Part shown: in pieces, positions 39,760-49,133 of the stretch
Numbering within the stretch: the stretch's first letter is position 1
Layout of the letters: every line of letters begins with the position of its first letter
Assembly (NCBI RefSeq): GCF_003019035.1
Contig: NZ_CP027447.1
Length of the DNA: 64,000 nucleotides
Direction: 5' to 3' (one strand)
DNA from: Escherichia coli
Lineage (GTDB): Bacteria > Pseudomonadota > Gammaproteobacteria > Enterobacterales > Enterobacteriaceae
Position numbers and translations under genes: made by a program
The notes under the pieces: generated by a model
What the model saw: the letters and a program-made list of their open reading frames with translations, nothing else
The model's database searches: none
Told to the model about the DNA's origin: nothing

Positions 39760-40123
39760 GGGGCTGATTCTGGATTCGACGGGATTTGCGAAACCCAAGG
39801 TGCATGCCGAGGGGCGGTTGGCCTCGTAAAAAGCCGCAAAAAATAGTCGCAAACGACGAAAACTACGCTTTAGCAGCTTAATAACCTGCTTAGAGCCCTC
39901 TCTCCCTAGCCTCCGCTCTTAGGACGGGGATCAAGAGAGGTCAAACCCAAAAGAGATCGCGTGGAAGCCCTGCCTGGGGTTGAAGCGTTAAAACTTAATC
40001 AGGCTAGTTTGTTAGTGGCGTGTCCGTCCGCAGCTGGCAAGCGAATGTAAAGACTGACTAAGCATGTAGTACCGAGGATGTAGGAATTTCGGACGCGGGT
40101 TCAACTCCCGCCAGCTCCACCAC
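39760..40123 (+). ncRNA. ssrA: tmRNA (transfer-messenger RNA, 10Sa RNA)
   Basis: GGGGCTGATTCTGGATTCGACGGG... through the tag reading frame gcaaacgacgaaaactacgctttagcagcttaa (ANDENYALAA) to the tRNA-like 3' end GGTTCAACTCCCGCCAGCTCCACCA. Confidence 0.96.
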
Positions 40124-40289: not shown

Positions 40290-41522
40290 ATGCCAAAGGT
40301 AGCAACAAAACTCACTGACACAGAGATCAAAAAGGCCAAGCCCACAGAGAAAGAGTTCACGCTATGGGATGGAGATGGCTTGTTCCTGCGCATCAAACCA
40401 AGTGGCAAAAAAATCTGGCACCTCGGCTATACCGTTCCATTAACCAAGAAACGGGCCAAAATGAGTCTTGGGTTCTATCCCTACCTGACACTTGCTCAAG
40501 CAAGAGCGCTACGGGATGAATACCTCTCTTTGCTTGCACAGGGTATCGATCCCCAATCCCACAATGAGCAAAAAGCCCAAGCGCTTAAAGATGCCACTGA
40601 ACACACATTCCAGACTGTAGCGAAAAAATGGCTTGATGAAAAAATTAAAACATCAGGCATATCGCAAGATCATGCTAAGGATATCTGGCGTAGCCTTGAA
40701 CGGAACATCTTTCCTACTTTAGGGGATGTTCCCATTAAAGAGATCCGCCCTAAAATGTTAAAACAACACCTTGACCCCATAGAACAAAGGGGCGTACTCG
40801 AAACCTTGCGACGTATAATTTCCCGACTTAATGAAATTTTCCGCTATGCCGCGACAGAAGAACTCATTGAGTTCAACCCCGCTGACAACCTTATCCAACG
40901 TTTTAGTAAACCCAAAAAGCAAAATATGCCTGCGTTGCCGCCAGATGAACTACCCCGTTTCATGACAGCATTATCAAACGCATCTATACGCTTAGAAACA
41001 CGTCTACTAATTGAATGGCAACTTCTTACTTGGGTTCGTCCCGGTGAAGCTGTACGCGCTCGCTGGACTGACATAGACGAAGAAAGCAAGTATTGGAACA
41101 TTCCATCCGATTTCATGAAGATGAAACGTCCTCATAAGGTTCCATTGAGCAAAGAAGCTATACGTATTCTTGAATCCATGAAACCAATCAGCGGTCATCG
41201 TGAGTGGGTTTTCCCCAGCATAAAAAATCCTTTAACACATATGCACGAGCAAACTGCCAACGCCGCATTAATCCGAATGGGCTTAGGTGGAGAACTCGTA
41301 GCACATGGCATGCGTTCTATTGCAAGAACAGCAGCAGAAGAAGCAGGAAAATTTAGGACAGAAGTTCTTGAAGCGGCTCTCGCCCACTCAAAAAAAGATG
41401 AAATCATTGCTGCTTATAACCGTACAGAATATTTAGTCGAGCGTGTCGAGTTAATGCAATGGTGGAGTGATTATCTCCAAATACAAAAATATAAGTCTTT
41501 AACAACTCTGATCGCCAGCTAA
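40290..41522 (+). CDS. P4-type (IntA/SlpA-like) tyrosine site-specific integrase
   Basis: 410 aa; N-terminal arm-binding region (KLTDTEIKKAKP...LWDGDGLFLRIKPSGKKIW) and C-terminal catalytic region with R...HxxR...Y context (VAHGMRSIARTAA...LAHS...AYNRTEY); located directly after ssrA. Confidence 0.92.
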   Translation: MPKVATKLTDTEIKKAKPTEKEFTLWDGDGLFLRIKPSGKKIWHLGYTVPLTKKRAKMSLGFYPYLTLAQARALRDEYLSLLAQGIDPQSHNEQKAQALKDATEHTFQTVAKKWLDEKIKTSGISQDHAKDIWRSLERNIFPTLGDVPIKEIRPKMLKQHLDPIEQRGVLETLRRIISRLNEIFRYAATEELIEFNPADNLIQRFSKPKKQNMPALPPDELPRFMTALSNASIRLETRLLIEWQLLTWVRPGEAVRARWTDIDEESKYWNIPSDFMKMKRPHKVPLSKEAIRILESMKPISGHREWVFPSIKNPLTHMHEQTANAALIRMGLGGELVAHGMRSIARTAAEEAGKFRTEVLEAALAHSKKDEIIAAYNRTEYLVERVELMQWWSDYLQIQKYKSLTTLIAS

Positions 41523-41679: not shown

Positions 41680-42399
41680 ATGGAAGATTTAGTTTGTAGT
41701 TGGTCACCAAAGCTGATCGTTGATCTTATAAAAAGTATCGCTTGGCCAGTAGTCGTCCTTCTCATCGGCTTCAGTTTTCGAACTCGAATTTTTGAAGTGG
41801 CACGTTCATTTTTTTCTAAAAACACAGTTTCAGAAATATCAGCTACAGTATCAGGTGTATCGGCAAAATTTGTGACAGCAAAGCAAACAACTGAAGTATT
41901 AGAAAGTGCTAGTACCAATGCAGCGAATTTACCAAAGAGTATGAGTATTGAGGCTATAAGAGCGCGACATGAACAGCATAAAACAGAATTCAGCGAAGAG
42001 TTATATCAATCAATAATTAAACATGCTTCCTCTTTAGATATTAATAATGATGAAAAAGTCAAAATTCTGGCACGTGAATTGTCTATTTATCAAGCTATAA
42101 TACGATATATTGACATTAATAAGATATTATTTCGCTCACAATACAATTTATTTTGTTCTATAAATAGTAATGGTGGTCAAATAAATAAAGAAGACGCCAA
42201 TCTTTTTTTTGAGGCGACCAAGAACAACAATAAAGAAGCATTCTCCGATTGGGATTGGATTAAATATATTGCCTATCCTGTTAGTAATAGCCTTATCTAT
42301 GAAGATAATAATTTTTATAAACTTACAGAGTTGGGAAGATCGTATATAGCTTTTATGTCAAAAAATCCACAACTAATCGACGAACTTGCAAAATTATAG
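41680..42399 (+). CDS. Hypothetical membrane-anchored protein (N-terminal TM helix), island cargo
   Basis: 239-aa ORF with aggggga RBS; hydrophobic segment IAWPVVVLLIGFSF; AT-rich codon usage; no recognisable family. Confidence 0.6.
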   Translation: MEDLVCSWSPKLIVDLIKSIAWPVVVLLIGFSFRTRIFEVARSFFSKNTVSEISATVSGVSAKFVTAKQTTEVLESASTNAANLPKSMSIEAIRARHEQHKTEFSEELYQSIIKHASSLDINNDEKVKILARELSIYQAIIRYIDINKILFRSQYNLFCSINSNGGQINKEDANLFFEATKNNNKEAFSDWDWIKYIAYPVSNSLIYEDNNFYKLTELGRSYIAFMSKNPQLIDELAKL

Positions 42400-42629: not shown

Positions 42630-43082
42630 CTATTTATCATTACGTTTTTTCATAAAATATTTATAACGTTCATCAGCTTCTTTTTGAAACTTTTCAGCGT
42701 CAAACGTATCAGTTTCTATTTTTATTTTTTGTTTTACCGCTTCATCTAATCTTTTATTTTCTTTCAATCTTTCTTTTTCTACTAATATAAGTTTATAGTA
42801 TTTTAGCTTAATATTAAAACTTGCTTTTGCTAACTCCTTAGCGTCAAAACCTATATTGTATTTTTTAAGAAGTTTCAATATATAATCTATAGTCATTTTT
42901 TTCACTTCCTTTTTTATTTTTTCTTCATGCGCATCTTTTTTTATACTCCCACTTTTTAACCATTGCTTAAATTTATAGCCATTATAATGCTGCCATTGAT
43001 ATATTTCAGCGGCATACATCACCGACAACATACAAACAATAAAAAATACAACCATAAAAACCACACATATTAAATAATACAT
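42630..43082 (-). CDS. Hypothetical membrane-anchored Lys/Glu-rich protein, gene 6
   Basis: 150 aa; N-terminal TM LICVVFMVVFFIVCMLSVMYAA then a charged helical region. Confidence 0.55.
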   Translation of the reverse strand: MYYLICVVFMVVFFIVCMLSVMYAAEIYQWQHYNGYKFKQWLKSGSIKKDAHEEKIKKEVKKMTIDYILKLLKKYNIGFDAKELAKASFNIKLKYYKLILVEKERLKENKRLDEAVKQKIKIETDTFDAEKFQKEADERYKYFMKKRNDK

Positions 43083-43083
43083 A

Positions 43084-43320
43084 TCAGCCCCCGCCTTTCC
43101 TTCTATATTGTTCTTTTATTAATGCTACGTGATATTTTTTTGCGTTGCTTATACTTACATCAGCAGAGTTTCTAGCAGAAGCAAAAGCACTTGAAACAAC
43201 AGAAGCAATAATGGCAACTAAGAAAGCAGCAACAAAAAAACCCATCACTGGCCCCATAAAACTAGCCCCACCGTCATCTATTGCTGGTTTTGCTTTTGCT
43301 AATAATGATAATAGGCTCAT
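43084..43320 (-). CDS. Hypothetical small membrane protein (single TM), gene 5
   Basis: 78 aa; hydrophobic core GPVMGFFVAAFLVAIIASVVSSAF followed by a basic tail. Confidence 0.55.
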   Translation of the reverse strand: MSLLSLLAKAKPAIDDGGASFMGPVMGFFVAAFLVAIIASVVSSAFASARNSADVSISNAKKYHVALIKEQYRRKGGG

Positions 43321-43730
43321 ATATTTCTCTCTTCTTCAATGTTTTTAATCGCTGTTTCTATTCTTTGTTTTACAAAGTCTCTAAACACATAACCTATTAT
43401 TCGCGCGTCTTCACATATATCTAACTCATCTTTTTTATGAAAATATAAATCAGCGCTTAAAAGCTCTTCGCTTTGAATATTTAACATTTTACTAGCAAGT
43501 GATATTCTAATAATATTTCGCACTTCTAAATCCAAGCTTGCTCTATCATGCTTATTCAAAAGCTGGAGCGGATGAAAATCTTTTTTTCTTTTCATTTCTT
43601 GCATATCATTATCAAAATCTATCATTAAAAAATGTAAGCAAGTAAAAGACGTATCATAGAAGTTTAAGCGGTTCATCATATCCGCCGTTCCCTCTTTTCG
43701 AGGGTTCGGGTTAGGTCTTAATTTATTCAT
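43317..43730 (-). CDS. Hypothetical protein, gene 4
   Basis: 137 aa; overlaps gene 3 by 8 bp and gene 5 by 4 bp. Confidence 0.55.
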   Translation of the reverse strand: MNKLRPNPNPRKEGTADMMNRLNFYDTSFTCLHFLMIDFDNDMQEMKRKKDFHPLQLLNKHDRASLDLEVRNIIRISLASKMLNIQSEELLSADLYFHKKDELDICEDARIIGYVFRDFVKQRIETAIKNIEEERNI

Positions 43731-44064
43731 CTGCTTTACTCCTTTTCTTGTTGTTTTTTAGCTTCCATTCATTCAATCTTTTATCGCCTTCAACTTTTAA
43801 GAACTCACGCTGATCGTGTATTCTTTTCAGTATTAGATTATTAGTTAACGCTCCTACTAACAAAGAAATATCATTCGCAAAATCTAATGTCTCGATGTTA
43901 TTTTCTCTAACTATTCTTATTAGTTCAGCGCCGGCTTTTATTTTACGTGTCGTATCTTTTTTCCTTTCTTCTGCCTTCATTTCTTGCTCCATTCTATTCA
44001 ATAAGTTTGCTCTTTGCTCAATTTCTTTTTTTAATTTATTATATTTTTCTATATTAAACGCCAT
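43723..44064 (-). CDS. Hypothetical basic coiled-coil protein, gene 3
   Basis: 113 aa, Lys/Glu-rich heptad-like N-terminus (EKYNKLKKEIEQRANLLNRMEQEMKAEERKK). Confidence 0.55.
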   Translation of the reverse strand: MAFNIEKYNKLKKEIEQRANLLNRMEQEMKAEERKKDTTRKIKAGAELIRIVRENNIETLDFANDISLLVGALTNNLILKRIHDQREFLKVEGDKRLNEWKLKNNKKRSKADE

Positions 44065-44383
44065 TTTCTGAACCTCTCTTTTCTTTTATCGTAATAAAAA
44101 AGGCAATCAACCCACTGATCAATAAAATTGGTAAAGTTAAAATAAACCCTACCAATAACACTAATGAAAATCCGAGCACGCCGGACATCTCATATAGATT
44201 TCCGAACAATGTGCTTTCGTTTTTATACTCAACCATATTCTGTAAAACAGACCTTTTTTCAATATCTTTTTCTTTTAAAGAATCTTCTCTATATTCATAA
44301 TCTTCACAACTCAAAGAAATTTCCACAGTGTTATCATTCAAATACTCATTATCATAATAGTCGTAATCATTATTCCCAATCAT
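44054..44383 (-). CDS. Hypothetical membrane protein (acidic Tyr/Asp-rich N-terminus, C-terminal TM segment), gene 2
   Basis: 109 aa; hydrophobic stretch GVLGFSLVLLVGFILTLPILLISGLIAFFITI; translationally coupled to neighbours. Confidence 0.55.
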   Translation of the reverse strand: MIGNNDYDYYDNEYLNDNTVEISLSCEDYEYREDSLKEKDIEKRSVLQNMVEYKNESTLFGNLYEMSGVLGFSLVLLVGFILTLPILLISGLIAFFITIKEKRGSENGV

Positions 44384-44565
44384 TCTAGATCTCCTTCTAA
44401 CGTGTCATAAACAACAGTAAAATCATTCTCATGAGAAAGAAGATTGTAAGTTATAAATAAGCTTGTCCTATAAACAATATCTGTATTTTCATCCTGTAGT
44501 TTTTGAATAATCAACTTAACAAGATCAGACGCTGCCACTTCAATTTTTTTATCAATATCATTCAT
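44380..44565 (-). CDS. Hypothetical small acidic protein, gene 1 of the six-gene island operon
   Basis: 61 aa; agagg-type RBS; stop overlaps the next gene start by 4 bp. Confidence 0.5.
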   Translation of the reverse strand: MNDIDKKIEVAASDLVKLIIQKLQDENTDIVYRTSLFITYNLLSHENDFTVVYDTLEGDLE

Positions 44566-44737
44566 GTTCCACCTCTTTTATTTTTTATGATTTCTGTTAT
44601 ATATATTAAGTAATATAATTATTTATTTAAGTAAAGCGCGATATATATTTTTTTGTTTTTAGAACGCATTTTTCAGATAAAAGGCTCACGTGCGGCGGCT
44701 ATTTTAGTTTTGCTAAAAACTACAATAGCGCACTTAT

Positions 44738-44761
44738 ACATTCTTCGAATGTGTGCGCCCC
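44738..44761 (+). promoter_or_regulatory. Candidate origin of transfer (oriT) with MobQ-type nick motif
   Basis: Inverted repeat acattc-ttc-gaatgt immediately followed by GTGCGCCCC, resembling the recalled RSF1010 oriT nick region (IR + TAAGTGCG/CCCT); lies about 115 bp upstream of the relaxase gene. Confidence 0.55.
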
Positions 44762-44874
44762 ATAAATGGGGGTTTACTAACGCAGAAAAATAAAAAGTAA
44801 TATTCGCTTTATGCTCAATATTACTTAATCGCTTTTCAAAAAAGCAAATATATTTTTATTATTTTAAAAAGTAT

Positions 44875-46203
44875 GTGTTTCAATATCAGGAGATAAAAAC
44901 AATGGCAATATTTCATATGAGCGCTCAAACAATAACACGCAGCAAGGGGTATAGTAGCGTAGCTGCGGCAGCTTATCGCCACGGCGAAAAGTTAACGGAC
45001 GAACACACAGGAGAGATCCACGACTACAGCAAAAAGAAAGGTGTTTCAGACAGTGTTATATTAATACCTGAAAGCGCAGACCGTAATTTTTTAAAGCCTG
45101 CGTATTTATGGAACATGATAGAAAAAAGCGAAAAAAGAAAAGATGCGCAGTTAGCTCGCGAGTTTAATATTGCGCTTCCTGTCGAAATGACAGATGAACA
45201 AAAAAAGGCGTTAGCAATAGATTTTTGCCAAGAGCATTTTGTAAAAAATGGAATGATTGCTGATATAGCTTTTCACAAGCTCGATAGCGACAACCCACAT
45301 TTTCATGTAATGCTAACCACCCGCAGCCTTACGCCGGACGGTTCAGAGTTCGGACATAAAGTCAGGGAATGGAACAACAAAGAGCAGCTCGAAGGCTGGC
45401 GCAAGAGCTGGGCTGACACAGCGAACGAGCACATGCAAAAGGCTGGCATCGATGCGCATATAGATCACAGATCACTGAAAGAACAAAAAGCAGAGCTTGA
45501 CGCTATCCTCCCCCCTCTCAGAACGATTGAGCAAGAGGCGCAGGCTATCAGCTTAGACAGACCGCCGACTATCCATAGAGGCCATAGCCGCAATCCAGAG
45601 CGACAAGCACGCTTTGACGTGCTCCAAGAAGTGAAAGTATCACAAGAGGAAAAAGCACTTAACCACATTGAACAGAAACAACTTAAGCCCTCGCCGCTGG
45701 CTCCAGCTTCCTCCCCTGCCGCATCTTTGCAAGATGCTACACAAGGAGGCAATGAAAACAACCCGCAAAATAGACTCGGCGAAGTTGGCGAATATCTTCA
45801 ATCTAAACTCAATAAAGAAGATAAAGCAGATCTTAATACTGATAATGAAATCAAAGTTCACACTACTAAAAATAATAGGGAAAGCAGTTCAGCAGCAGCT
45901 ATAGGTTCAACATCAAATATTAATTTAACCGATGAGAAAACAGATAAGAATCTACACTTAACAGAAGCACAAAAAGAAGAGTTAGAGGATTTAGAAAATA
46001 AAGAAGCAGCAGCGAAGAAAAAAGCTTATCTGATGAGCGGAGCTGCCGTTCCTGAACTTTCTCAAGATTACAAAACACTGTCAAAAAGTGAGTTTAAAAA
46101 TAAGCTTCATACAGCTAAACAATCAATATCATTAACTGAAAAGAGATTTAATGAAGAATGTGAAGCATATGATAACAGAAGAAAACGACCAATACCGCGC
46201 TAA
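44875..46203 (+). CDS. MobA/MobL-family (MobQ-type) conjugative relaxase, relaxase domain only
   Basis: N-terminus MAIFHMSAQTITRSKGYSSVAAAAYRHGEKL aligns with RSF1010 MobA MAIYHLTAKTGSRSGG...ADYIQREGKY (catalytic Tyr region); HFHVMLTTR matches the His motif HCHLMISER; C-terminal half is low-complexity Lys/Glu/Ser-rich with no primase domain. Confidence 0.85.
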   Translation: MFQYQEIKTMAIFHMSAQTITRSKGYSSVAAAAYRHGEKLTDEHTGEIHDYSKKKGVSDSVILIPESADRNFLKPAYLWNMIEKSEKRKDAQLAREFNIALPVEMTDEQKKALAIDFCQEHFVKNGMIADIAFHKLDSDNPHFHVMLTTRSLTPDGSEFGHKVREWNNKEQLEGWRKSWADTANEHMQKAGIDAHIDHRSLKEQKAELDAILPPLRTIEQEAQAISLDRPPTIHRGHSRNPERQARFDVLQEVKVSQEEKALNHIEQKQLKPSPLAPASSPAASLQDATQGGNENNPQNRLGEVGEYLQSKLNKEDKADLNTDNEIKVHTTKNNRESSSAAAIGSTSNINLTDEKTDKNLHLTEAQKEELEDLENKEAAAKKKAYLMSGAAVPELSQDYKTLSKSEFKNKLHTAKQSISLTEKRFNEECEAYDNRRKRPIPR

Positions 46204-46563: not shown

Positions 46564-47058
46564 ATGAAAACCGAAAACATTATTTTTCTTGTTTGGGCAG
46601 TGATTTTTATCCTGATTCTCTGCCAACTTTTTTATTTTGGCCCTAAAAAAAGAAGATACCTCAATACTTATATAGAGGTATTAGATGGTGATGTCCTCTC
46701 ATATGAATGTCAAAATACCGGCGTAGTTATTGATACTAAAAAAAACACAGTACGTATTTTCAATACATATAAGGACAGCACTTTCAAATACGACAACATC
46801 AGGGAAATAAATTATACGCTATCCGAAGCCGGAAAAATTTATAGCACAAGTAATAATCTAAACTCTATGATAAAGTCCGCTGGAGCTAACAGTAATGAAC
46901 AAATGTTAGCTAATCAGCGTTCCGGTATTTTTATACTGACAGATGATATAAAAAATCCTTCATGGAAAATCAATCTACCAATGAAAAACAAAACATCATC
47001 TACCAATCAGGAGATCTGCGATCGATGGCTTCTCATTTTTAAAAAATACGTTTTATAA
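46564..47058 (+). CDS. Hypothetical membrane-anchored protein
   Basis: 164 aa; gagga RBS; N-terminal TM IIFLVWAVIFILILCQLFYF. Confidence 0.55.
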   Translation: MKTENIIFLVWAVIFILILCQLFYFGPKKRRYLNTYIEVLDGDVLSYECQNTGVVIDTKKNTVRIFNTYKDSTFKYDNIREINYTLSEAGKIYSTSNNLNSMIKSAGANSNEQMLANQRSGIFILTDDIKNPSWKINLPMKNKTSSTNQEICDRWLLIFKKYVL

Positions 47059-47090
47059 CTTTGTTTTTTATTTTTATCTTTGGAGTTGAC

Positions 47091-47468
47091 ATGAAAAAAT
47101 TGATTGCGGCAGCATTTATTATTCTCCCTTTAGCAAGTTGTACTGTTTATGGAAACAAATCCATTAAAGACGAAACGCAGCAAAATATAGCCTCTAAAAT
47201 TATAAAAGGTAAAACTACTCAAAAAGATATCCTTCAACTTTATGGAGAACCTCAGACTAAAGAAACTAACGATGGTAAAGAAATGTGGGGATATTCCGTT
47301 ATGTCCGGTGAATCTCAGATTTCAAATTACATACCGGGATTAGCGTTATTGAAGAATAGCAGCACAGCGCACATGAAAGAACTTGAGATCTTGTTTAAAG
47401 GTGATGTAGTTGAACGCTATACCTTTAGACAAACGGCAAGCAAAGCTTCTCGCGGGTTGTTAGATTAA
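47091..47468 (+). CDS. Hypothetical lipoprotein (possible SmpA/OmlA-like fold)
   Basis: Start at MKKLIAAAFIILPLASC (lipobox LASC) preceded by ggag RBS; about 125 aa; weak pattern similarity to BamE-type lipoproteins (Q..L..YG.P.....W.Y). Confidence 0.55.
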   Translation: MKKLIAAAFIILPLASCTVYGNKSIKDETQQNIASKIIKGKTTQKDILQLYGEPQTKETNDGKEMWGYSVMSGESQISNYIPGLALLKNSSTAHMKELEILFKGDVVERYTFRQTASKASRGLLD

Positions 47469-47730
47469 TTTAAATTAAATACCATTTTATCTTTAAAAAG
47501 AAGTTGGAATAGTCCGACTTCTTTTCTATTTTATCAATAACATGCATTATTTATATTAGTGCCTTATGAAATGGCACCTTACTTTTTATATTTCCCTATC
47601 TGGGGGTTTAACCTTTGTTTTTTATTAAAAAAAATTTTGTACTAGTAGTACTAATTAATTAATTTAAAAATTTTTGGTTTTAAGGTTTTGGGGTTTGTGT
47701 TTTAGCGGGGCGGCTTTCAGCCGTAGTAGT

Positions 47731-47760
47731 TTTCCTCCGAAGGAGGAAATAGTTTTTCTT
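47731..47760. terminator. Perfect palindrome followed by T-run (terminator-like) in the island non-coding region
   Basis: tttcctccgaaggaggaaa followed by tagtttttcttt. Confidence 0.5.
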
Positions 47761-48087
47761 TAAGCATTCCCCCCCTACCCCCCACGCCAAAAAGGCTAAA
47801 AAAGAGAGATAGGAGATGCTCATTGCGTCTTGAAAATATTCAGAACGTTTCCATTCTGATACTTCCCCCACGACCCACGCAAACACAAATCATGAAACTT
47901 TCAAACAACTCTCGTTTTACTAAAGAGTCTATGCTACTGTTTGTAAATTTTTTAGATTGTGCGATTCAGGTTGGCAGCTACGCATATCCCGGTTAACCGC
48001 TGCCGCAATATTCTAAGTTTCACCAAACACTCGATGTCCTTCGTACTTAGACCTTGATACAACAAGGGTAATATTATATTGCTTTTG

Positions 48088-48223
48088 TAGATTAAATGTT
48101 TCTGGAAATGGTATTGACATTTTATCTATGTCAAAGTCGGCGAAATTTGTTTAATCATGCAGATTAGAGGCTTCTGGAAGTGGTATTTAATATTAGTTAA
48201 AAGTCGACGAAGCATTTCTAATC
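48088..48223. repeat. Tandem imperfect direct repeat of about 66-70 bp (two copies)
   Basis: Copy 1 gtagattaaatgtttctggaaatggtattgacatt...gtcaaagtcggcgaaatttgtttaatc and copy 2 gcagattagaggcttctggaagtggtatttaatatt...aaaagtcgacgaagcatttctaatc align by eye with several mismatches and a short gap. Confidence 0.6.
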
Positions 48224-48469
48224 TTTTGTATCTTTATATTATATAAATCTATATATAACACCAGTCAATAGATGAAATCAAAAATATTTTAAAAACATGA
48301 CTAGATGAAAAACAAAAAAAGACCAGATTAAACCCCAGTCTCTTTTTTACTTAATATCAGTTATGTTTTTCATATATAGTTCTAAAACGCTCTGTACGCG
48401 ATTTTGAGACGTTTTACACTGGAAGCGGCGTAATCATATAAATAATAAAATAGAATACTGTAATGATTT

Positions 48470-48673
48470 TTATGCCGCTTGATTACGCGAATAAAAAATC
48501 TTATCATCAATCCATTCGTCAACTTCACTTTCAACAAATGCGATAGTTCTTTCACCAGTCTTGATCGGAGAAGGGAAATCACCCCGGCTAATCAGCCGAT
48601 AGATCCACGCTTTACAAAAACCAGTCTTGTTTAACACTTCGGGTATGCGGATAAGTCTTTTTCTTTCGTTCAT
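48470..48673 (-). CDS. AlpA-family (HTH_17, excisionase-like) transcriptional regulator
   Basis: MNERKRLIRIPEVLNKTGFCKAWIYRLISRGDFPSPIKTGERTIAFVESEVDEWI matches the AlpA/prophage CP4-57 regulator pattern; start chosen at the Met preceded by a gagga RBS (ORF track starts 4 codons upstream). Confidence 0.8.
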   Translation of the reverse strand: MNERKRLIRIPEVLNKTGFCKAWIYRLISRGDFPSPIKTGERTIAFVESEVDEWIDDKIFYSRNQAA

Positions 48674-49133
48674 ATATTTCCTCATAGTTGTTTTGATGAG
48701 GCTATTATTCGAATATCGCTTATGACGATCAACAACTTTTTTAGCAAAAAGTGCTTTTTTAGTTGACTATTTTAAATTAACAGTCATTTAATCACCTTTG
48801 GAAGTTGAACTCATGAGTTCAACTCCTCACCGCTAGTCATGACATTCAAAATGTGCTTATTTTTTAGCCACAATACTTTTTTTATCCCTTTATTGCACCT
48901 CAATGTAAAATACAAATAATTAATATATTTAATAATCAAATGATTAAAGAGTCGATTACAGGGACGCCAGCCAATCATGATTGGACGGTGTAAGGACAAC
49001 ACTAATAAAAACAGGAAGTTAGCAGTCTCAGCAGGACACCGACCAGACGGTGAGGAGACATAAAAGGATACGCAAAGGAGCCGCGGCCCCTGGTGATATG
49101 AAAGCCCACAGATGTGGGCTTTTTCGTTGATGG

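What the first reader, a model, noticed from the sequence alone, without database searches (positions are those of the whole stretch)
44700..46203. MobQ-type relaxase lacking a primase domain, with an RSF1010-like oriT nick motif upstream
The relaxase N-terminus aligns with the recalled RSF1010 MobA sequence (catalytic Tyr region and HxH-type motif HFHVMLTTR). About 115 bp upstream an inverted repeat (acattc-ttc-gaatgt) is followed by GTGCGCCCC, resembling the MobQ nick consensus (TAAGTGCG/CCCT as I recall it). Unlike RSF1010 MobA, the protein has only a low-complexity Lys/Glu/Ser-rich C-terminal half and no RepB'-like primase domain, and the element encodes no coupling protein or T4SS, so it would depend on a helper conjugative system. 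A second palindrome (tagttttgctaaaaacta, 44706-44723) lies just upstream and could be an accessory-protein binding site.
Basis: partly seen in the sequence, partly recalled or inferred. Interest (0 to 1): 0.6.

Follow-up and report, generated by a model that had tools for sequence, protein, structure and literature searches.

The report
MobQ relaxase with misplaced nick site

Summary
The ORF (true start ATG 44902, 433 aa) is a MobQ/MobA_MobL relaxase with Tyr25 and the H125/H133/H135 motif. It has no primase domain, and RefSeq already annotates it as such. It lies on an 8.85-kb island (40123 to about 48974) inserted at ssrA. The island carries a P4-like integrase and an AlpA-like gene but no coupling protein or T4SS, so it is an integrative mobilizable element. 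Its mob module is shared at 83-87% identity with 5.4-6.2-kb enterobacterial plasmids.

The transfer origin is real: 44695-44780 is almost invariant in 12 relatives. The nick assignment is probably wrong. In about 80 of 84 related loci, in RSF1010 and in the MOBQ4 plasmid pSE11-6, the conserved hairpin + ATAAGTGCG|C lies on the strand opposite the relaxase gene. In the window this is the minus strand, 5'-ACATTCGAAGAATGT-ATAAGTGCG|CTATT, nicked between 44729 and 44728.

Verdict: new member of a known kind, low interest.

The parts
40109..40122 (+). attL: 3' end of ssrA (CGCCAGCTCCACCA); the island begins at 40123
   Evidence: tmRNA at 39760-40122. Comparison with the empty site of E. coli E17 puts the junction right after ...CCACCA.
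40290..41522 (+). P4-like tyrosine integrase (410 aa)
   Evidence: NCBIfam PRK09692 integrase domain, 462.6 bits against a cut-off of 434. RefSeq calls it 'integrase domain-containing protein' in SCU-301.
41680..42399 (+). Variable cargo slot: 239-aa protein of unknown function
   Evidence: No NCBIfam, PHROG or PADLOC hit. The same slot holds a DRT9 reverse transcriptase in PigCaeca_1 (PADLOC Drt9 E = 1e-221) and a gene RefSeq names a HEPN-domain protein in Z1323.
42630..44565 (-). Leftward operon of six small overlapping ORFs (150, 78, 137, 113, 109 and 61 aa), transcribed away from oriT. Four to six of them travel with mobQ on the small plasmids.
   Evidence: ORF list. Synteny in L002-L011. 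No family hits except for ORF3.
43723..44064 (-). ORF3 (113 aa): candidate MobC/TraD/DUF3847-like relaxosome accessory protein
   Evidence: Pfam DUF3847 at E = 5.9e-4; 7 of 16 family members reach E <= 1e-3. BLASTP against RSF1010 MobC gives E = 5e-4 and against MOBQ4 MobC E = 5e-5, over the ERKxDTxRKIxxGAxL motif. hhalign gives only 24.6% probability. DUF3847 genes sit next to PF03389 relaxases in Faecalibacterium IMEs (PMC12084326).
44695..44780 (.). oriT core: nearly invariant block containing three consecutive hairpins
   Evidence: 12-sequence alignment A1. Folding z-scores of -4.3 and -4.7.
44698..44729 (.). On the nicked strand it lies immediately 3' of the nick, and its outermost base pair includes the nick nucleotides.
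44728..44737 (-). Minus-strand ATAAGTGCG|C: homologue of the MOBQ nic sequence. The predicted nick is between 44729 (G on the minus strand) and 44728 (C).
   Evidence: 9/9 match to TAAGTGCGC. The same element, in the same orientation relative to the relaxase gene, is found in about 80 of 84 related loci, in RSF1010 (oligo with mapped nic in PMC4814116; orientation) and in pSE11-6.
44738..44752 (.).
   Evidence: Across relatives the stem sequence changes (at least 22 variants) but pairing is kept: 100% of 350 cells paired and 69 double changes, reached by 0 of 500 shuffles.
44753..44761 (+). Positions 44753-44757 are the complement of the outer-stem arm CGCAC that pairs with the nick-proximal GTGCG; 44758-44761 is an arm of hairpin 3.
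   Evidence: Inverted repeat GCGCAC/GTGCGC. The outer stem covaries, CGCAC/GTGCG against CCCAC/GTGGG, in 56 loci. The plus-strand motif is not conserved in relatives.
44758..44771 (.). Hairpin 3: CCCCAT-AA-ATGGGG
   Evidence: One compensatory change in Kp23 (CCCCCT...AGGGGG). Small G/C-rich hairpins occupy the same position in distant relatives.
44902..46203 (+). mobQ relaxase, 433 aa. The relaxase domain is residues 1 to about 200 (Y25, E87, H125, H133, H135). Residues 263-361 are predicted disordered, followed by C-terminal helices and a basic tail, RRKRPIPR.
46564..47468 (+). Two island genes downstream of mobQ: a DUF4755-type protein (46564-47058) and a lipoprotein-like protein (47091-47468; the ORF list extends it to a TTG at 47061)
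   Evidence: RefSeq names in relatives. phrog_3135 at 1.1e-28 for the second gene.
48470..48685 (-). AlpA-like HTH protein; probable excisionase or regulator
   Evidence: PHROG 66 and 2790, 'excisionase and transcriptional regulator', at 2.7e-10 and 1.6e-9. RefSeq names it 'AlpA family' in Z1323.
48964..48974 (+). attR: GACGCCAGCCA, an imperfect repeat of the ssrA 3' end; the island ends here
   Evidence: Three-way alignment with the empty-site genome E17.

Best explanation
The locus is the mobilization module (oriT, relaxase and accessory operon) of an 8.85-kb integrative mobilizable element inserted at the 3' end of ssrA.

Proposed mechanism, inferred by homology with RSF1010 MobA and NES:
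1. The integrase, with the AlpA-like protein, excises the island as a circle.
2. The MobQ relaxase binds hairpin 1 (44738-44752) on the minus strand.
3. Tyr25, with a metal ion held by H125/H133/H135, cleaves 5'-ATAAGTGCG|C-3' between 44729 and 44728 and stays covalently attached to the 5' end.
4. The protein-DNA complex is handed to the coupling protein and T4SS of a co-resident conjugative plasmid, because the island encodes neither.
5. The minus strand enters the recipient 5' to 3'. The small-ORF operon enters first and mobQ last.
6. Transfer ends by re-ligation at the regenerated hairpin-nic site.

ORF3 is probably a MobC-like accessory protein that helps open the nick region.

What is shown: family membership, catalytic motifs, conservation and covariation of the oriT structure, its orientation in relatives, the island boundaries, and the absence of T4CP/T4SS genes. 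What is inferred: the actual nicking position, excision, the helper's identity, and the role of ORF3.
For: Relaxase:
- NCBIfam MobQ above its cut-off and Pfam MobA_MobL.
- PDB NES at E = 4e-32 and R1162 MobA at E = 6e-11, with Y25 aligned to the catalytic position and E87 to E74.
- Y25, H125, H133 and H135 are invariant across relatives that are 48-53% identical.

oriT:
- The block 44695-44780 is nearly invariant in 12 relatives.
- It folds into three hairpins, z about -4.5.
- About 80 of 84 related loci carry [C(G/C)CAC][AC-stem]-loop-[stem-GT]-ATA(A/G)-GTG(C/G)G|C on the strand opposite the relaxase gene.
- Covariation test: 100% of cells paired, score 0.496 against 0.145 in shuffles (0 of 500 reach it), and slid controls pair at 52% or less.
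- The RSF1010 oligonucleotide with its mapped nic is GGTAAGTGCG/CCCT (PMC4814116). In an IncQ1 plasmid it reads toward mobC and away from mobA.
- pSE11-6 shows the same arrangement inside the 178-bp intergenic region that was shown to act as oriT in MOBQ4 plasmids.

Element:
- An empty-site comparison defines 40123 to about 48974.
- Integrase and AlpA-like gene are present.
- No ORF above 250 aa other than int and mobQ, and no T4SS hit.

Known analogues: ROD21-like islands combine a P4-type integrase, an RDF and a MobA/MobL relaxase; per the paper, ROD21 transferred only from donors carrying pSLT (PMC6035254).
Against: - There is no experimental nick mapping for this lineage; the strand assignment rests on homology.
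- 3' of the proposed nick the window reads CTAT, not the canonical CCCT, whereas the plus-strand motif is followed by CCCC.
- The loci used for the covariation test were chosen for having the core motif and a detectable hairpin, which inflates the percentage paired.
- The evidence that ORF3 is MobC-like is weak (hhalign probability 24.6%).
- attR is only an imperfect repeat (CGCCAGC..CA), so competence for excision is unproven.
- Only 4 of 5426 complete E. coli genomes carry the island, so there is little population evidence of active spread.
Confidence: 0.8

Rival explanations
1. The plus strand is nicked at GTGCG|CCCC (44757|44758), 5 nt after the same hairpin. Transfer would then proceed toward mobQ, so the relaxase gene would enter first.
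For: The core GTGCGCCC matches the RSF1010 nic core 8/8. It is followed by C-rich sequence and a hairpin, as in RSF1010. The motif is invariant in 11 of 12 close relatives. Scored against the 17 specified positions of the published Gram-positive consensus NcgtNtaAgtGCGCcCTta (PMC10333310), the plus strand scores only slightly lower than the minus strand (11 against 13, my own count).
Against: - The TAA/ATAA spacer between hairpin and GTGCG, conserved in 70 of 70 relatives with a detected hairpin, is missing on the plus strand.
- In more distant relatives the plus-strand equivalent is not conserved: GTGCGAAAT, CGTGCTAAA, GTGGGGTCT.
- The orientation is opposite to RSF1010 and to pSE11-6.
- Z1323 carries a T-to-C change inside the plus-strand GTGCG core, while its minus-strand site is intact.
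- The motif is fully explained as the complement of the covarying outer-stem arm plus an arm of hairpin 3.
Confidence: 0.08
2. The module is an inactive relic. A small MobQ plasmid, or its mob cassette, was captured by an ssrA island. The sequences persist but no longer support excision or mobilization.
For: The island is rare: 4 of 5426 genomes. attR is degenerate. In the near-identical SCU-301 copy several island genes are annotated as shortened or as pseudogenes. Chromosomal relaxases carry a 42-aa insertion in the disordered region.
Against: In the window all six small ORFs, mobQ, int and the alpA-like gene are intact. The catalytic residues are intact. The oriT core is identical to that of plasmid copies despite 13-17% divergence elsewhere, which indicates purifying selection. 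Three island variants with different cargo share the module, which suggests recent mobility.
Confidence: 0.1

Closest known systems
RSF1010/R1162 MobA-oriT (MOBQ1)
   Same: HUH relaxase fold with Tyr25 and a 3-His motif. The nic core is TAAGTGCG|C, preceded by an inverted repeat. The nic lies on the strand opposite the relaxase gene and faces a divergently transcribed mobC-like gene. Both depend on a helper T4SS.
   Different: - No fused RepB' primase domain.
- The relaxase domain is only distantly similar (E = 6e-11).
- Position 89 is Asn where MobA has E76.
- There is one extra nucleotide between hairpin and TAAG.
- An outer stem pairs the nick pentamer with the 5' flank; RSF1010 has no such stem.
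- 3' of the nick the sequence is CTAT, not CCCT.
- The module is carried on an integrated island, not an IncQ replicon.
MOBQ4 plasmids (pSE11-6, pIGWZ12, ColE9-J; PMC6856555)
   Same: Enterobacterial hosts. Identical numbering of catalytic residues (Y25, E87, H125, H133, H135). The oriT architecture is the same, GCGCAC-ACAATC...GATTGT-ATAAGTGCG|C on the strand opposite mobQ and facing mobC. The relaxase domain is 49% identical. The MobC motif is shared with ORF3.
   Different: - 49% identity against about 84% within MOBQ4, so it is not a member of that clade.
- The C-terminal part is unrelated (E = 1.3) and much shorter (433 aa against 719 aa).
- Six accessory ORFs instead of mobC plus one.
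- Different replicon, or integrated in the chromosome.
NES relaxase of pLW1043/pSK41 (MOBQ3; PDB 4HT4)
   Same: It is the best solved-structure match (E = 4e-32 over residues 2-187), with a single Glu in motif II. From my own knowledge, its oriT also has a hairpin followed by ATAAGTGCG|CCC.
   Different: NES comes from a Gram-positive conjugative plasmid. From my own knowledge, it has a folded helical C-terminal domain; here the C-terminal half is mostly predicted disordered.
EARL / ROD21-like genomic islands of Enterobacteriaceae (PMC6035254)
   Same: IMEs with a P4-like integrase, an RDF, a MobA/MobL (MOBQ) relaxase and a TraD-like protein, and no T4SS. They depend on a helper; per the paper, ROD21 transferred only from donors carrying pSLT. 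Many chromosomal enterobacterial loci recovered carry the TA(A/G)GTGGGC variant of the same oriT; whether those loci are EARL islands was not checked.
   Different: EARL islands are described with ROD21's attL at an Asn-tRNA gene rather than ssrA, and most encode type IV pilin-related genes. The island here is about 9 kb. Its relaxase is only 42-47% identical to those of the chromosomal enterobacterial loci, and its accessory operon is different.

Membership tests
MOBQ relaxase class (MobA/MobL, PF03389) | N-terminal MobA_MobL relaxase domain | tested here: met
   Pfam PF03389 at 1.8e-63 over residues 18-198. NCBIfam MobQ NF041496 at 254.5 bits, above the cut-off of 200.
MOBQ relaxase class (MobA/MobL, PF03389) | Motif I: a single catalytic Tyr near the N-terminus | tested here: met
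   Y25 aligns with position 25 of NES (Phe in the 4HT4 chain) and with Y25 of R1162 MobA. It is invariant in A2 and A4.
MOBQ relaxase class (MobA/MobL, PF03389) | Motif III: HxDx(n)NPHxH metal-binding histidine triad | tested here: met
   H125-KLDSD-NP-H133-F-H135, invariant across distant relatives. It aligns with H112/H120/H122 of MobA.
MOBQ relaxase class (MobA/MobL, PF03389) | Motif II acidic residue(s) (E74/E76 in MobA) | tested here: inconclusive
   E87 aligns with E74, but N89 replaces E76, as the equivalent Ile does in NES.
MOBQ relaxase class (MobA/MobL, PF03389) | Cognate oriT with an inverted repeat followed by TAAGTGCG|C | tested here: met
   Present on the minus strand at 44752 down to 44728. 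Conserved and covarying in relatives.
MOBQ relaxase class (MobA/MobL, PF03389) | Site- and strand-specific nicking, and helper-dependent mobilization | not testable with these tools
   Needs biochemistry and mating assays.
MOBQ1 (RSF1010/IncQ1 type) | Relaxase fused to a RepB'-type primase domain | tested here: not met
   No Pfam domain beyond residue 198. BLASTP against the IncQ RepB domain gives E = 7. The C-terminal half is predicted as a disordered stretch plus helices.
MOBQ4 clade | About 84% identity in the N-terminal relaxase domain within the clade, and a long C-terminal part with weak SogL-primase similarity | tested here: not met
   49% identity to the pSE11-6 relaxase domain. The C-terminal parts are unrelated.
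Integrative mobilizable element (IME) | Site-specific integrase with defined att junctions at a tRNA or tmRNA gene | tested here: met
   P4-like integrase. attL and attR defined against an empty site.
Integrative mobilizable element (IME) | Own oriT, with or without a relaxase, but no T4SS and no coupling protein | tested here: met
   ORF inventory and negative family searches.
Integrative mobilizable element (IME) | Excision and helper-dependent transfer | not testable with these tools
   Needs an attP/attB PCR and mating assays.
EARL (ROD21-like) islands | Integration at an Asn-tRNA gene and conserved type IV pilin-related genes | tested here: not met
   The island is integrated at ssrA, and no pilin-like ORFs were found.

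The most novel reading that the evidence does not exclude
The 8.85-kb ssrA island may be a minimal shuttle for defence genes. It would combine a plasmid-derived MobQ/oriT module with an exchangeable cargo slot: DRT9 in one relative, a gene RefSeq names a HEPN-domain protein in another, and an uncharacterized 239-aa protein here. It also carries a conserved six-gene operon of small proteins. By my reading of the sequences, three of them have hydrophobic, probably membrane-spanning stretches; this was not tested with a tool. On this reading the 239-aa protein would be a new anti-phage gene, and the small proteins a new kind of mobilization accessory or exclusion set. A less likely alternative is that the near-palindromic oriT is cut on both strands.
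Probability: 0.15. Interest if true: 0.45.

Novelty: new member of a known kind. Interest (0 to 1): 0.2.

Why it matters
- It adds one small ssrA-integrated mobilizable island to the known MOBQ repertoire.
- It gives a concrete, testable nick position, on the strand opposite to the one first proposed.
- PLSDB/MOB-suite types the 5.4-6.2-kb plasmids that share this module as non-mobilizable, so this lineage is probably under-counted in mobility surveys.
- The family-wide oriT signature (covarying hairpin plus outer stem, then ATAAGTGCG|C on the strand opposite the relaxase gene) could be used to annotate oriTs next to MobQ genes.
- None of this changes current understanding of conjugative mobilization.

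Tried and rejected
1. Looking for attR as a direct repeat of the ssrA 3' end found only a 10-mer, GTTCAACTCC, at 48817. I rejected it once the empty-site comparison placed the junction at about 48974.
2. NCBIfam, PHROG and PADLOC searches of the six small ORFs, the cargo gene and the downstream genes gave no informative hits. The exceptions were the AlpA-like gene and phrog_3135. Pfam found nothing for ORF4.
3. ORF3 against the TraD-annotated protein of the 4-kb plasmid L012 showed no similarity (E = 9.4). hhalign against RSF1010 MobC was weak (24.6% probability). The homologue search returned only close 'hypothetical' relatives.
4. GTGCGCCC as a stand-alone statistic is not significant across the whole window.
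5. The promoter and terminator scan was at chance level.
6. Rfam found nothing in the island beyond tmRNA.
7. My first motif filter was wrong and returned nothing. It was corrected.
8. I considered membership of MOBQ1, MOBQ4 and EARL and rejected each on a tested feature.
Full report
**1. Observation**

- The ORF list gives 44875-46203 (GTG, 442 aa). The biological start is ATG 44902, preceded by AGGAG. All homologues start MAIFH, and the stretch between GTG and ATG carries indels in relatives.
- HFHVMLTTR is residues 133-141.
- ACATTC-TTC-GAATGT lies at 44738-44752 and is followed by GTGCGCCCC at 44753-44761.
- The palindrome at 44706-44723 is the centre of a larger one with 14-nt arms, 44698-44711 and 44716-44729.
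- As a bare 8-mer, GTGCGCCC is not unusual in 64 kb: 3 found against 2.3 expected. In the 336-bp, 28% GC intergenic region about 2e-4 are expected.
- The 91-nt core folds into three hairpins, z = -4.3 and -4.7.

**2. The protein**

- Pfam finds only MobA_MobL, residues 18-198, at 1.8e-63.
- NCBIfam MobQ scores 254.5 bits against a cut-off of 200.
- Among solved structures the best match is NES of pLW1043 (E = 4e-32), followed by R1162 MobA (E = 6e-11). Tyr25 aligns with the catalytic position and E87 with E74; N89 stands where MobA has E76.
- Y25, H125, H133 and H135 are invariant in relatives that are 48-53% identical. This is the same residue numbering reported for MOBQ4 relaxases (PMC6856555).
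- The C-terminal 233 residues have no Pfam domain. They show no similarity to the IncQ RepB primase (E = 7) or to the MOBQ4 C-terminal part (E = 1.3).
- AlphaFold2 predicts a disordered stretch at residues 263-361 followed by low-confidence helices.
- The close family keeps the C-terminal part. Chromosomal copies carry a 42-aa insertion, and both chromosomal and plasmid copies end in a basic tail.
- RefSeq already annotates the identical gene as 'MobQ family relaxase'.

**3. Context**

- The window is E. coli chromosome. The tmRNA gene is at 39760-40122.
- It is followed by a low-GC segment of about 30-35% GC.
- In genomes with an empty site, ssrA is directly followed by ATCATGATTGG.... Aligning E17 with the window places attL at 40122|40123 and attR at about 48964-48974 (GACGCCAGCCA|ATCATG). 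The island is about 8.85 kb.
- Its gene order is: P4-like integrase; a cargo gene; six small leftward ORFs; oriT; mobQ; a DUF4755-type gene; a lipoprotein-like gene; an AlpA-like HTH gene.
- No ORF other than int and mobQ exceeds 250 aa, and nothing resembles a coupling protein or T4SS component. The element is therefore an integrative mobilizable element.
- Only 10 of 5426 complete E. coli genomes carry the module: 4 on the chromosome at ssrA and 6 on 5.4-10-kb plasmid records.
- PLSDB holds about a dozen 5.4-6.2-kb plasmids of Klebsiella, Enterobacter, Salmonella and E. coli with the same oriT-mobQ-small-ORF module at 83-87% identity.
- MOB-suite types all seven of these plasmids that I fetched as non-mobilizable.

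**4. The transfer origin and the nick**

- In an alignment of 12 close relatives the block 44695-44780 is almost invariant while the flanks vary. That conservation cannot tell the two strands apart.
- More distant MobQ loci can. Upstream of mobQ in a Clostridium plasmid, a Bacillus plasmid and 4-kb enterobacterial plasmids, the gene strand reads GGCGCACTTATAC followed by a hairpin of different sequence. The reverse complement is hairpin + ATAAGTGCG|CC(CT).
- A protein-based scan of one genome per species returned 80 loci with relaxase domains 41-93% identical.
  - 61 of 84 loci (including the window and three plasmids) have TAAGTGCGC with at most one mismatch on the strand opposite the relaxase gene, within 450 nt upstream.
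  - Most of the remaining loci have the two-mismatch variant TAGGTGGGC in the same architecture.
  - The hits on the gene strand are almost all the complement of the sequence next to that same site.
- The consensus is [C(G/C)CAC][AC-stem of 6-9]-loop-[stem-GT]-ATA(A/G)-GTG(C/G)G|C.
  - At least 22 different stem sequences occur.
  - The outer stem switches between CGCAC/GTGCG (21 loci) and CCCAC/GTGGG (35 loci).
- Formal covariation test on 30 distinct sequences:
  - 100% of 350 cells are paired.
  - 69 cells changed on both sides, a count reached by 0 of 500 shuffles.
  - The covariation score is 0.496, against 0.145 in shuffles.
  - Slid controls pair at 52% or less.
  - Caveat: these sequences were selected for having the core motif and a detectable hairpin.
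- The RSF1010 substrate with its mapped nic is CAGTTTCTCGAAGAGAAACCGGTAAGTGCG/CCCTCCC (PMC4814116). In an IncQ1 plasmid this strand reads toward mobC, while mobA and mobB lie on the other strand.
- In pSE11-6, a plasmid of the MOBQ41 group, the 178-bp mobC-mobA intergenic region was shown to act as oriT in MOBQ4 plasmids. It contains GCGCAC-ACAATC-(13 nt)-GATTGT-ATAAGTGCG|C on the strand opposite mobQ.
- The homologous site in the window is therefore on the minus strand: 5'-GGGGCGCAC-ACATTC-GAA-GAATGT-ATAAGTGCG|CTATTG-3'. The nick falls between 44729 and 44728.
  - On the gene strand the ATAA spacer is absent.
  - The base after GTGSG on that strand is C in only 9 of 19 flank classes, against 70 of 70 on the other strand.
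  - One close relative (Z1323) has a substitution inside the plus-strand core.

**5. Accessory genes**

- ORF3 (43723-44064) hits Pfam DUF3847 weakly (E = 5.9e-4). Seven of 16 family members reach E <= 1e-3, and two touch TraD.
- It shares an ERKxDTxRKIxxGAxL motif with RSF1010 MobC (E = 5e-4) and with MOBQ4 MobC (E = 5e-5). hhalign gives only 24.6% probability.
- DUF3847 genes accompany PF03389 relaxases in Faecalibacterium IMEs (PMC12084326).
- I treat ORF3 as a probable relaxosome accessory protein with moderate confidence.
- The other five small ORFs have no detectable relatives outside this lineage.

**6. Comparison and verdict**

- The system works like a MOBQ mobilization module and passes the sequence-level membership tests for the MOBQ class.
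- It is not MOBQ1 (no primase).
- It is not MOBQ4 (49% identity and an unrelated C-terminus).
- It is not an EARL island (integration at ssrA rather than an Asn-tRNA gene, and no pilin genes). EARL islands are, however, the closest known analogue at the level of the whole element (PMC6035254).
- The finding is a new member of a known kind and is already annotated in RefSeq. Interest is low.

Noticed in passing
window 41680-42399; L003 5236-6834; L004 5099-6838: The slot between the integrase and the small-ORF operon holds different cargo in the three island variants. The window has a 239-aa protein with no family hit. PigCaeca_1 has a DRT9 anti-phage reverse transcriptase (PADLOC E = 1e-221). 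Z1323 has a gene RefSeq names 'LA2681 family HEPN'. The window's gene may be an uncharacterized defence gene.
   Followed up: partly
L005-L011 (plasmids OW968069.1, NZ_CP056714.1, NZ_AP026954.1, NZ_CP092396.1, NZ_CP070023.1, NZ_CP083084.1, NZ_OV753995.1): PLSDB/MOB-suite types these 5.4-6.2-kb plasmids as 'non-mobilizable', although each carries an intact MobQ relaxase and the conserved oriT. This relaxase lineage seems to be missed by that typing scheme.
   Followed up: partly
window 44729-44733 with 44753-44757; loci L017-L096: An outer stem pairs the nick-proximal pentamer GTG(C/G)G with C(G/C)CAC on the 5' side of the relaxase-binding hairpin, leaving an ATAA bulge. It covaries (CGCAC/GTGCG against CCCAC/GTGGG) across 56 loci from several phyla and is absent in RSF1010. 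I do not know whether it has been described, or what it does, for example occluding the nick until the DNA melts.
   Followed up: partly
window 42630-44565 (minus strand): This is a six-gene operon of small overlapping ORFs. By my reading of the sequences, three of them (150, 78 and 109 aa) have hydrophobic, probably membrane-spanning stretches; this was not tested with a tool. Four to six of the ORFs are conserved next to mobQ on the small plasmids. Apart from the MobC-like ORF3, their function is unknown.
   Followed up: partly
L002 3781-5472 (minus strand) and the equivalent gene in the other 5.4-kb plasmids: The 563-aa 'protein rep' of the related plasmids has only a weak match to IS91-family transposases (E = 3e-7, well below the cut-off).
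   Followed up: no
window 44795-44804 with 44817-44826: A perfect 10-nt inverted repeat, AAGTAATATT(12)AATATTACTT, lies between oriT and a promoter-like site at 44833-44862 upstream of mobQ. It could be an operator. It is only partly conserved in the plasmid copies.
   Followed up: no
window 47500-48470: About 1 kb of the island, between the lipoprotein-like gene and the AlpA-like gene, has no convincing ORF and no Rfam match.
   Followed up: no
window 49134-53831 (minus strand) and 50074-50157: Just outside the island lies the ypjA/ehaD autotransporter gene, with a 12-nt tandem repeat that encodes the PDPK/PNP linker. The same right flank follows ssrA or other ssrA islands in 4154 of 5426 E. 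coli genomes.
   Followed up: partly
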